A stretch of 32,000 bases of DNA, from positions 1,339,460 to 1,371,459 of the forward strand of contig NC_000909.1 of the NCBI RefSeq assembly GCF_000091665.1, written 5' to 3'. Made by a program: the position numbers and the translations under genes. The DNA is from Methanocaldococcus jannaschii DSM 2661 (GTDB taxonomy: Archaea > AGJL01 > Methanococci > Methanococcales > Methanocaldococcaceae). How positions within the stretch are numbered: the stretch's first letter is position 1; each line of letters begins with the position of its first letter. Shown here piece by piece: positions 28,733 through 28,972 of this stretch. A model generated the notes under the pieces. It was not told the origin of the DNA. It searched no databases and worked only from the letters and a program-made list of their open reading frames with translations.

Positions 28733-28765
28733 TATTATGGAATTAAAAGGAAGAAGTATTTCAAA
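28733..28765 (+). repeat. 33-nt direct repeat, left copy (tattATGGAATTAAAAGGAAGAAGTATTTCAAA)
   Basis: 31/33 identical to 28940-28972. The ATGs are exactly 207 nt apart. Together the copies flank the GC-rich element. Confidence 0.9.
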
Positions 28766-28920
28766 GCATAGAGGCAAAGCCTCTATTGCTATACTCCAGA
28801 GCGGGGTTGCCAGAGGCAACCCCACTTTCTATCTGGGGAGTATCCCAATAGAGGGGCAAAGCCCTTCTATAGTGAGGATACCTCTTAACACTCCCCTTGC
28901 TAACGCTCGGAGGTGTAAAT
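28766..28920 (+). ncRNA. GC-rich multi-hairpin element: candidate structured ncRNA or small non-autonomous mobile element
   Basis: G+C is 79/150 (53%) by hand count over 28766-28915, against ~30% background. Structure read on paper:
- Hairpin at 28768-28786.
- Hairpin at 28803-28823 (9-bp perfect stem).
- Hairpin at 28848-28870.
- Enclosing helix 28791-28800 / 28832-28843.
A G-U pair in the third hairpin favours the + strand. The overlapping 65-aa ORF (28737-28934) has a composition atypical for this genome. Confidence 0.45.
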
Positions 28921-28939
28921 TTTCTTATGATTGAGGGAT

Positions 28940-28972
28940 TATTATGGAACTAAAAGGAAGAAGTATATCAAA
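28940..28972 (+). repeat. 33-nt direct repeat, right copy (contains the real start of the DUF126 gene)
   Basis: tattATGGAACTAAAAGGAAGAAGTATATCAAA; see the left copy. Confidence 0.9.

What the first reader, a model, noticed from the sequence alone, without database searches (positions are those of the whole stretch)
28733..28972. GC-rich multi-hairpin element inserted on the start of the DUF126 gene, flanked by 33-nt direct repeats that duplicate the gene's start
The sequence tattATGGAA(T/C)TAAAAGGAAGAAGTAT(T/A)TCAAA occurs at 28733-28765 and again at 28940-28972 (31/33 identical, ATGs exactly 207 nt apart). Only the second copy continues into the conserved DUF126 protein. The first runs into a 174-nt insert of ~53% G+C (79/150 by hand count) in a ~30% G+C genome.

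The insert folds on paper into the following:
- ATAGAGGC-AAA-GCCTCTAT (28768-28786).
- GGGGTTGCC-AGA-GGCAACCCC (28803-28823).
- An enclosing helix, ATACTCCAGA / TCTGG(GG)AGTAT (28791-28800 / 28832-28843).
- ATAGAGGGGC-AAA-GCCCTTCTAT (28848-28870), which has a G-U pair only on the + strand. This hairpin and the first are variants of one motif.

In hyperthermophiles with AT-rich genomes, local GC spikes are a known hallmark of structured RNAs. The long flanking duplication that restores an essential gene's 5' end is the footprint of an insertion or integration event. The element could therefore be a small mobile structured RNA gene, a MITE-like element, or a leftover attachment site. Its 65-codon read-through ORF is Arg/Gly/Pro/Ser-rich, unlike the genome's proteins.
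Basis: seen in the sequence. Interest (0 to 1): 0.72.

Follow-up and report, generated by a model that had tools for sequence, protein, structure and literature searches.

The report
Mobile hairpin repeat inserted at gene start
A 174-base, hairpin-rich piece of repeated "selfish" DNA found in Methanocaldococcus genomes has landed on the start of a lipid-pathway gene in M. jannaschii. It copied 33 bases of the target as it inserted, so the gene survived; the case is real and tidy but fairly ordinary.

Summary
A 33-nt direct repeat (28733-28765 / 28940-28972, 31/33 identical) brackets a 174-nt multi-hairpin insert that is the strongest G+C peak of the window. It lies between pyrI and the DUF126 gene (phosphomevalonate dehydratase small subunit) of M. 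jannaschii.

- **Insertion, not leader.** Three related genomes have an empty site: a 13-20 nt pyrI-DUF126 gap and one copy of the repeated sequence.
- **A dispersed family.** The insert is a string of hairpin modules (A', H2, A, B). The same modules recur in other orders at at least 25 other loci in Methanocaldococcus sp. 16A, sp. 28A and vent MAGs.
- **Target duplications are typical.** Other copies are also flanked by locus-specific direct repeats, from 8 to about 81 nt and commonly 21-33 nt. One duplicates a gene's 3' end.
- **Stems are maintained.** Hairpin stems co-vary between copies (6 of 10 pairs compensatory).
- **Nothing supports an RNA gene or a protein.** No Rfam family matches, both strands fold equally well, and the 65-codon read-through ORF has no homologue.

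Best reading: a non-autonomous, MITE/REP-BIME-like mosaic palindromic repeat, probably one of the MJRE elements published in 2005. It is tolerated because the duplication regenerated the gene's start. The RNA-gene and attachment-site ideas are not supported. The long, variable duplications and the turnover of modules at fixed sites are the unusual part.

The parts
28268..28717 (+). pyrI (aspartate carbamoyltransferase regulatory chain), the upstream gene. In relatives it ends 13-20 nt before DUF126.
   Evidence: ORF; Pfam PyrI/PyrI_C on the identical gene in L001; empty-site spacing.
28733..28765 (+). Left copy of the target duplication: a relic DUF126 start (ATG 28737 plus 9 codons). The duplication may extend about 6 nt further left (28728-28732 against AGGGAT 28934-28939).
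   Evidence: 31/33, none expected by chance. The sequence is single-copy in L008, L009 and L214 (within <=4 mismatches) and, read from the alignment, in L010.
28766..28797 (+). Module A': terminal hairpin ATAGAGGC-AAA-GCCTCTAT plus the arm TGCTATACTCC. This is the constant 'SCATAGRGG' terminus of the family.
   Evidence: I10, I1. L009, L025, L031 and about 10 further loci carry the GCATAGAGG...CTCTATTGCTATACTCC form with a different inner stem (GAGGG-AAA-CCCTC instead of GAGGC-AAA-GCCTC).
28798..28836 (+). Module H2: hairpin GGGGTTGCC-AGA-GGCAACCCC with flanking AGAGC / ACTTTCTATCTGG.
   Evidence: (I5). The same module follows A' in L018 (nhmmer).
28837..28872 (+). Module A: arm GGAGTATCCCA plus hairpin ATAGAGGGGC-AAA-GCCCTTCTAT, the inverted partner of A'.
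   Evidence: The 18-mer core GGAGTATCCCAATAGAGG recurs in 23 Methanocaldococcus stretches.
28873..28887 (+). Linker holding the small hairpin GAGG-ATA-CCTC (28874-28884), which resembles the GGGATACC arm motif.
   Evidence: Sequence; MFE structures.
28888..28920 (+). Module B: hairpin ACAC(T)CC...GGAGGTGT with the conserved loop TTGCTAACGCTC, followed by AAATT.
   Evidence: nhmmer (B+ 28893-28920). Covariation across 15 B/C copies: 96.7% of cells paired, 6 of 10 pairs with compensatory change, 0 of 500 shuffles as good.
28921..28939 (+). AT-rich tail (TTTCTTATGATTG) followed by AGGGAT. It contains the uORF stop TGA (28932-28934). AGGGAT is probably the native Shine-Dalgarno-like sequence and part of the duplicated target.
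   Evidence: Sequence. L214's empty site reads TTTAGGGATTTTTATGG; L007 shares AGGGATTATTATGG.
28940..28972 (+). Right copy of the target duplication: the functional start of DUF126.
   Evidence: the protein is full length from ATG 28944.
28944..29333 (+). DUF126 / AcnX_swivel gene (phosphomevalonate dehydratase small subunit), intact.
   Evidence: PF01989, 129 aa, 100% coverage by homologues.
28737..28934 (+). 65-codon read-through ORF that starts at the relic ATG and stops 9 nt before the real ATG, in the same frame. Not a conserved protein.
   Evidence: the only hit among 5.8 billion proteins is itself.

Best explanation
The 174-nt insert is one copy of a Methanocaldococcus-specific family of non-autonomous, mosaic palindromic repeats. 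Each copy is a string of short G+C-rich hairpin modules, here A'-H2-A-linker-B. This copy inserted into the translation-start region of the DUF126 gene and duplicated at least 33 bp of the target.

Shown:
- It is an insertion, because the site is empty in three relatives.
- Its modules are dispersed elsewhere in related genomes.
- Long, locus-specific flanking duplications are typical of the family.
- One end of a cluster is nearly always the hairpin terminus (C/G)CATAG(A/G)GG, usually next to an A-rich target end. The other end is variable or truncated.
- Stems co-vary between copies.

Inferred, consequence for the gene. The duplicated segment carries the ribosome-binding region, the ATG and 9 codons, so the downstream copy keeps DUF126 intact and still transcribed from the pyrI side. 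The upstream relic ATG opens a 65-codon uORF that ends 9 nt before the true ATG. That may let ribosomes melt the hairpins and re-initiate.

Inferred, mode of spread (about 40% for this, about 30% for a classical transposase). A polar 'copy-in' event at widely staggered breaks: synthesis is primed at the hairpin terminus of a donor copy, runs through a variable number of modules, and fill-in of the stagger gives duplications of 8 to about 81 bp. Later recombination between copies swaps modules at a fixed site.
For: Insertion at this site:
- Empty orthologous sites have 13-20 nt pyrI-DUF126 gaps: L008 (sp. 16A), L010 and L214.
- The duplicated sequence is single-copy there.

Dispersal of the family:
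- Another family copy lies about 10 kb away in L009.
- The 18-mer core was found in 23 Methanocaldococcus stretches, including 7 in each of two complete genomes, and otherwise only in scattered, presumably chance, bacterial hits. About 17 more hits came from vent metagenomes.
- Module maps show different orders at different loci.

Flanking duplications:
- Scores were at least 17 in 15 of 27 core sites, against a 95th percentile of 15 for random sites.
- Examples: 21-38 nt at L013, L014, L018, L025, L026, L033, L044 and L052; 27 nt at L059, 49 nt at L091, 13 nt at L067; 8 nt at L031; 81 nt at L007.
- Several are unique to their locus.

Other support:
- The constant terminus is listed for 55 units.
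- Covariation in the B/C hairpin.
- The uORF has no homologue.
- Logan contigs of M. jannaschii start at 28783/4 and end in an orphan CRISPR repeat, which looks like assembly breaks at repeats.
- A palindromic repeat family (MJRE1-3, 141 copies) has been published for this genome. The citation is confirmed; the details are from my memory.
Against: - Copy number in M. jannaschii itself could not be counted. Its genome is absent from the searchable collection and the window holds only this copy.
- No transposase or other partner enzyme was found; the ORFs between two clusters in L048 are housekeeping genes.
- About half of the clusters show no clear flanking duplication.
- Some 'duplications' near CRISPR arrays or D modules involve sequences that are themselves repeated.
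- L007 carries different modules (D, C) at the same right junction. This site therefore had either two insertions or one insertion followed by module replacement, and I cannot tell which.
- The copy-in mechanism and the uORF coupling are inferences only.
- Identity with the published MJRE groups could not be checked, because the paper is not held.
Confidence: 0.8

Rival explanations
1. The insert is an independent structured non-coding RNA gene, of the kind found as G+C islands in AT-rich hyperthermophiles, that happens to be mobile.
For: It is the highest G+C peak of the window. Folding is strong, z = -5.75. Hairpin stems co-vary. G+C islands with promoters have been proposed as ncRNAs in this organism (PMC2602779).
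Against: No Rfam family matches at gathering or relaxed thresholds in the window or in 11 related loci, where only tRNA, 5S and CRISPR repeats were found. The minus strand folds equally well. Module order and content differ between copies and between orthologous sites, so no RNA architecture is conserved. The element is absent from close relatives.
Confidence: 0.07
2. The repeats are attL/attR left by site-specific integration of a plasmid or virus into the 5' end of DUF126, with most of the element later deleted.
For: Integrases that target genes carry a replacement gene end, giving exactly this kind of duplication. L007 has an 81-nt duplication of the same gene start.
Against: There is no integrase or cargo. 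The insert is built from modules found at many loci, each flanked by a different duplicated sequence of different length. No similarity to plasmids or phages was found, and the two viral-contig hits to the core were not Methanocaldococcus-like (one checked; the other is the same contig as the chance metagenome hit L064).
Confidence: 0.04
3. The family is moved by a conventional transposase supplied in trans, making it a true MITE. The enzyme would be of a type that makes long, variable target duplications, as IS1634/IS1549- or IS1630-like elements do (from my knowledge of those IS families).
For: Inverted A'/A termini (I1). Target duplications. A-rich sequence at the junction in most of 55 units. 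DDE transposase genes exist in these genomes (L009 11482-12480).
Against: The second end is often truncated or is a different module. Extra bases lie between the duplication and the terminus in several copies. No IS with matching termini was found. The 8 to about 81 nt range is extreme.
Confidence: 0.3
4. The insertions are by-products of CRISPR adaptation machinery (Cas1-Cas2-like off-target integration), which duplicates a repeat-length stretch of target.
For: Many duplications are 21-33 nt, near the 30-37-nt CRISPR repeat length. Module clusters abut CRISPR arrays and are flanked by partial CRISPR repeats at L014, L018, L019, L036, L045 and L067.
Against: Duplication length ranges from 8 to 81 nt, so there is no ruler. 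Inserts are 77-305 nt of recurring modules rather than ~36-40-nt unique spacers.
Confidence: 0.04

Closest known systems
MJRE1-3 palindromic repetitive elements of M. jannaschii (Suyama, Lathe & Bork, FEBS Lett 2005; citation seen, content from memory)
   Same: Same organism. Palindromic, roughly 100-nt, mostly extragenic repeats (141 copies reported). Some sit inside coding regions without breaking the frame; here the insert is in frame with the gene start but ends in a stop codon.
   Different: I could not compare sequences because the paper is not held. As far as I recall, the long variable target duplications, the modular mosaic make-up and the same-site module turnover seen here are not part of that description.
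Bacterial REP sequences and BIMEs (bacterial interspersed mosaic elements)
   Same: Short G+C-rich imperfect palindromes with a conserved foot. They cluster in alternating orientation with other short motifs into mosaics, are extragenic and lineage-specific, and their stems are kept by compensatory change.
   Different: REP/BIMEs have no target duplications and are tied to RAYT (HUH Y1) transposases. Here there are duplications of 8 to about 81 bp, the host is an archaeon, and no RAYT was looked for or found.
MITEs (for example Sulfolobus SM elements, Neisseria Correia elements)
   Same: Small, non-coding, multi-copy, with inverted termini, flanking target duplication, filled/empty polymorphism between strains, and occasional read-through ORFs.
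   Different: MITE families have a fixed short duplication and a uniform body derived from a parent IS. Here the length is variable, the body is mosaic, one end is often truncated, and no parent IS is known.
IS1634/IS1549 and IS1630 insertion sequences (from my knowledge)
   Same: They generate unusually long and variable direct target repeats, from tens to hundreds of bp.
   Different: They are autonomous, transposase-encoding elements of Mycoplasma and Mycobacterium with defined ends. Nothing comparable is encoded here.
Hgc G+C-island ncRNAs of M. jannaschii (Klein, Misulovin & Eddy 2002; Rfam HgcC/E/F/G)
   Same: A G+C-rich, strongly folding island in an AT-rich hyperthermophile genome.
   Different: No Rfam match, no conserved architecture, and present or absent between strains.

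Membership tests
Dispersed Methanocaldococcus hairpin-module repeat family (defined here; probably MJRE) | The same sequence modules occur at multiple unlinked loci | tested here: met
   The core 18-mer occurs in 23 Methanocaldococcus stretches and about 17 metagenome contigs. Modules A, A2, B, H2 were mapped by nhmmer.
Dispersed Methanocaldococcus hairpin-module repeat family (defined here; probably MJRE) | Multiple copies in M. jannaschii itself | not testable with these tools
   The genome is absent from genome contigs. There is one copy in the 32-kb window. The only indirect hint is assembly breaks at 28783/4.
MJRE1-3 (Suyama et al. 2005) | Sequence match to a published MJRE consensus or coordinate list | not testable with these tools
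   The paper is not in the library; only its citation was seen.
MITE | Terminal inverted repeats | tested here: met
   A' (28766-28797) and A (28837-28872) are inverted. The 18-nt arms are 89% complementary (I1). However, module B and the tail lie outside this pair.
MITE | Target-site duplication of a fixed, family-specific length | tested here: not met
   Duplications are present, but their length varies from 8 to about 81 nt between insertions.
MITE | A parent IS with the same termini encoding the transposase | tested here: inconclusive
   None was seen in about 40 fetched loci. The DDE gene in L009 has no matching ends and the L048 ORFs are housekeeping genes. Whole genomes were not searchable.
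REP/BIME | Mosaic clusters of short G+C-rich imperfect palindromes in both orientations | tested here: met
   Module maps; sequences.
REP/BIME | Association with a RAYT (Y1 HUH) gene, and no target duplication | tested here: not met
   Flanking duplications are common. RAYT presence was not tested.
Curated structured RNA family (Rfam, including Hgc RNAs) | Covariance-model match at or near the gathering score | tested here: not met
   There were 0 hits at gathering in the window. The best relaxed hit was 15.9 bits against a threshold of 45. No module hit in 11 related loci.
Integrated element attachment site | The same core att sequence at every insertion, with an integrase or cargo nearby | tested here: not met
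   Flanking repeats are locus-specific. There is no coding cargo in the 174 nt, and no plasmid or phage similarity.
Protein-coding insertion (conserved small protein) | Homologues of the 65-aa ORF | tested here: not met
   Only the self-hit was found in 5.8 billion proteins at E <= 10.

The most novel reading that the evidence does not exclude
These hairpin-module mosaics are a distinct class of archaeal mobile DNA. It would spread by a polar, synthesis-dependent 'copy-in' route, either target-primed or by template switching at widely staggered breaks. Its signatures would be one constant hairpin terminus, a variably truncated far end, and target duplications anywhere from 8 to about 81 bp. 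It would need no dedicated transposase of a known family, and modules would be exchanged between copies at fixed sites.
Probability: 0.25. Interest if true: 0.7.

Novelty: new member of a known kind. Interest (0 to 1): 0.4.

Why it matters
For genome annotation: the G+C island between pyrI and DUF126 should not be called an ncRNA gene or a 65-aa protein. It also shows how an insertion into the start of an isoprenoid-lipid pathway gene, presumably essential, can be harmless.

More broadly, the family offers a tractable case, with filled and empty alleles among sequenced strains, for asking how REP/BIME-like hairpin repeats move in archaea. Their long and variable target duplications are not what standard MITE or REP models predict.

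Tried and rejected
- **Rfam.** Searched at gathering and relaxed thresholds on the window and on 11 related loci: nothing but tRNA, 5S and CRISPR repeats.
- **tRNA/tmRNA scan.** None in the window.
- **65-aa ORF as a protein.** No homologues.
- **Plasmid and phage collections.** Queried with this element and with a 351-nt composite copy: no match.
- **Viral contigs.** The family core gave two hits; one was inspected and is unrelated, the other is the same contig as a chance metagenome hit. A scan with the short loop motif CCTCGCTWMCGCTCGG was too unspecific to use.
- **Parent IS.** The DDE transposase gene in L009 has no ends resembling the family terminus. ORFs between two clusters in L048 are housekeeping genes.
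- **Literature.** The Suyama 2005 paper is not held. The two M. jannaschii promoter papers do not mention MJ1406-MJ1408, which are my guess at the locus tags and may not be the right ones. No paper was found on target duplications in Methanocaldococcus repeats.
- **Element-supplied ribosome-binding site.** Dropped after seeing AGGGAT at an empty site.
- **Strand-specific G-U pairing as evidence for RNA.** Too few non-Watson-Crick pairs to judge.

Full report
**What is there**

The window is M. jannaschii DNA. The 129-aa protein from 28944-29333 is 100% identical to the DUF126 / 'phosphomevalonate dehydratase small subunit' of that organism, and pyrI ends at 28717. The 33-mer at 28733-28765 recurs at 28940-28972 with two mismatches and 207-nt spacing. 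No shuffle of the window gave a second match.

The 174 nt in between are 48.9% G+C, or 52% over 28766-28917, against 30.6% for the window. They contain the highest 100-nt G+C peak of the 32 kb, 0.54. There is also an 18-nt inverted repeat that pairs 28780-28797 with 28837-28854, and a fifth hairpin at 28888-28916. The region folds far better than shuffles, but equally so on both strands (z = -5.75 and -5.79).

**It is an insertion**

In Methanocaldococcus sp. 16A (L008), in a 91%-identity MAG (L010) and in an 88% relative (L214), pyrI is followed after 13-20 nt by DUF126. The duplicated sequence occurs there once.

Two other relatives also carry something at this spot:
- L007 (97% protein identity) has a different 100-nt insert, made of a D module and a C module. 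It is flanked by an 81-nt duplication of the gene start and shares the right junction AGGGATTATTATGG with M. jannaschii.
- Sp. 28A (L009) has an unrelated AT-rich element with 17-nt terminal inverted repeats.

The AGGGAT in front of the functional ATG also occurs at the empty L214 site. It is therefore probably native, and the duplication may be a few bases longer than 33.

**It belongs to a dispersed family**

A sensitive search of the fetched loci found pieces of the insert about 10 kb away from DUF126 in sp. 28A. The 18-mer shared by both arms (GGAGTATMSCAATAGAGG) was then found in 23 stretches of Methanocaldococcus genomes: seven in each of two complete genomes, and the rest in MAGs. The only other hits were scattered single matches in unrelated bacteria, as expected by chance. 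About 17 vent-metagenome contigs also carry it with the full hairpin context. M. jannaschii's own genome is not in that collection, so its copy number could not be counted.

Aligning the copies shows a set of recurring hairpin modules. I called them A/A' (ATAGRGG hairpin with a GGAGTATNNCA arm), A2, B, B2, C, D, E, H2 and an AT-rich linker F. They are strung together in different orders and orientations. The window copy reads A'-H2-A-linker-B-tail. The A'-H2 junction recurs in L018, and module B recurs in several MAG loci.

Across 15 distinct B/C hairpins, 96.7% of cells are paired. Six of ten pairs show compensatory changes and the loop TCGCT..CGCTC is conserved. No shuffle and no slid register comes close.

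**Family traits that bear on mechanism**

1. *Flanking direct repeats.* Scores were at least 17 at 15 of 27 core sites, while the 95th percentile of random sites is 15. Lengths are as follows:

| Locus | Duplication length (nt) |
|---|---|
| L031 | 8 |
| L067 | 13 |
| L014, L016, L025, L026, L044, L052 | 21-23 |
| L059 | 27 |
| L013, L018 | 32 |
| window | 33 |
| L033 | 38 |
| L091 | 49 |
| L007 | 81 |

Those of L013, L026, L059 and L091 occur nowhere else in the data. The window's 33-mer occurs otherwise only at the orthologous DUF126 start, once per empty site and twice in L007. The L091 repeat duplicates the 3' end and stop codon of a gene, the mirror image of the window case.

2. *One constant end.* One end of a cluster is almost always (C/G)CATAG(A/G)GG, usually directly after an A-rich target end; in several copies it is separated from the duplicated segment by 3-18 extra bases. 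The other end is either the inverted hairpin (..CTATGG) or a truncated B/C module with an AT-rich tail.

3. *Module turnover at fixed sites.* At four pairs of orthologous sites the boundaries are the same but the modules inside differ: window/L007, L025/L046, L015/L078 and L053/L077. Units are also found nested in the loop of a D module (L031, L016, L038).

**What it is not**

- No Rfam family matches the window or the clusters in 11 related loci.
- No tRNA-like gene is present.
- The 65-codon ORF has no homologue.
- Plasmid, phage and viral collections have no copy.
- No integrase, transposase or other cargo lies in or next to the element.

These results, together with the strand symmetry and the lack of a conserved overall architecture, argue against an RNA gene and against an att remnant.

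**How it most likely works**

Shown: a member of a mosaic hairpin repeat family inserted at the DUF126 start and duplicated at least 33 bp.

Inferred: because the duplicated piece holds the ribosome-binding region, the ATG and nine codons, the downstream copy keeps the gene whole and read from the pyrI side. The upstream relic ATG opens a uORF that runs through all the hairpins and stops at TGA 28932-28934, 9 nt before the real ATG and in the same frame. This could help ribosomes open the structure and restart. L007 lacks that arrangement, so it is not a general feature.

For the mode of spread, the variable duplication length, the extra junction bases, the constant-end/variable-end polarity and the absence of a partner IS fit a synthesis-dependent copy-in at staggered breaks somewhat better than a classical transposase. 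I put these at about 0.4 and 0.3. Neither was tested.

**Relation to known things**

M. jannaschii is reported to carry 141 palindromic repeats in three groups (MJRE1-3; Suyama et al. 2005). The citation was seen, but the paper is not held, so its content is from my memory. This insert is very probably one of them, though I could not compare sequences.

In behaviour the family resembles bacterial REP/BIME mosaics and MITEs. It fails the fixed-duplication criterion of MITEs and the no-duplication criterion of REPs. Long variable duplications are known for IS1634/IS1549 and IS1630 (my knowledge).

**Verdict**

The family's long variable duplications and module turnover deserve a proper genome-wide look.

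Noticed in passing
L009:9867-10000 and L009:~12620-12740: In Methanocaldococcus sp. 28A the same pyrI-DUF126 spacer holds an unrelated AT-rich insert of about 114 nt with 17-nt terminal inverted repeats (TATAGTTTTGTGCAAAA / TTTTACACAAAACTATA). A second copy lies beside a DDE transposase ORF (11482-12480). This looks like a separate, conventional MITE family, and it suggests the spacer is an insertion hot spot.
   Followed up: partly
L018:124-435, L019:~990-1231, L036:2967-3290, L014:656-830, L045:~880-960, L067:~4549-4651: Clusters of the same hairpin modules sit directly at the ends of CRISPR arrays (Rfam CRISPR-DR13, DR39 and a 37-nt repeat type). They are flanked by duplicated partial CRISPR repeats. 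This looks more frequent than expected, but the sample is small.
   Followed up: partly
L001:~8693-8722 (about 46-75 nt beyond the window's right end): There is an orphan CRISPR repeat (GTTTCCATTCCGAATCGGTCTGATTTTAAT) in the long intergenic region after the NIP7-like gene. Two of three short-read assemblies of M. jannaschii break exactly there, and all three break at window 28783/4 inside the element. This suggests both are multi-copy sequences in the genome.
   Followed up: partly
L044:~2300-2416, L048:~5921-6050: The recurrent C-F-A arrangement carries a TATA-like AAAAATATA about 25 nt upstream of the A hairpin. In these loci it points into the downstream gene just before its ribosome-binding site, so it may be an outward-facing promoter donated by the repeat. 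The window copy lacks this F linker.
   Followed up: no
L091:2760-3035: A 178-nt module cluster is flanked by a 49-nt direct repeat (42/49) that duplicates the last codons and stop codon of a minus-strand gene. This is the 3'-end counterpart of the window's 5'-end duplication.
   Followed up: partly
L031:~1440-1560; L016:444-607; L038:5403-5640: Module units are nested inside the loop or one half of the palindromic D module (GAAACTTTTTCTAAAAGTTTC), with 8-21-nt duplications of D sequence. The window's left junction (TATTTCAAA|GCATAG) resembles the D-loop junction TTTCTAAAA|GCATAG. This hints at a target preference or a microhomology-guided junction.
   Followed up: partly
window 28737-28946: The relic ATG and the true ATG are exactly 69 codons apart in the same frame. 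A single TGA (28932-28934) prevents an N-terminally extended DUF126 protein. The minus-strand frame 2 of the insert is also free of stop codons.
   Followed up: partly
window 1341-1500, 13831-14020, 22271-22440, 25531-25670: There are other local G+C maxima (0.45-0.48 per 100 nt) in the window. None matched the repeat modules or Rfam. They were not examined further and probably lie inside genes.
   Followed up: no
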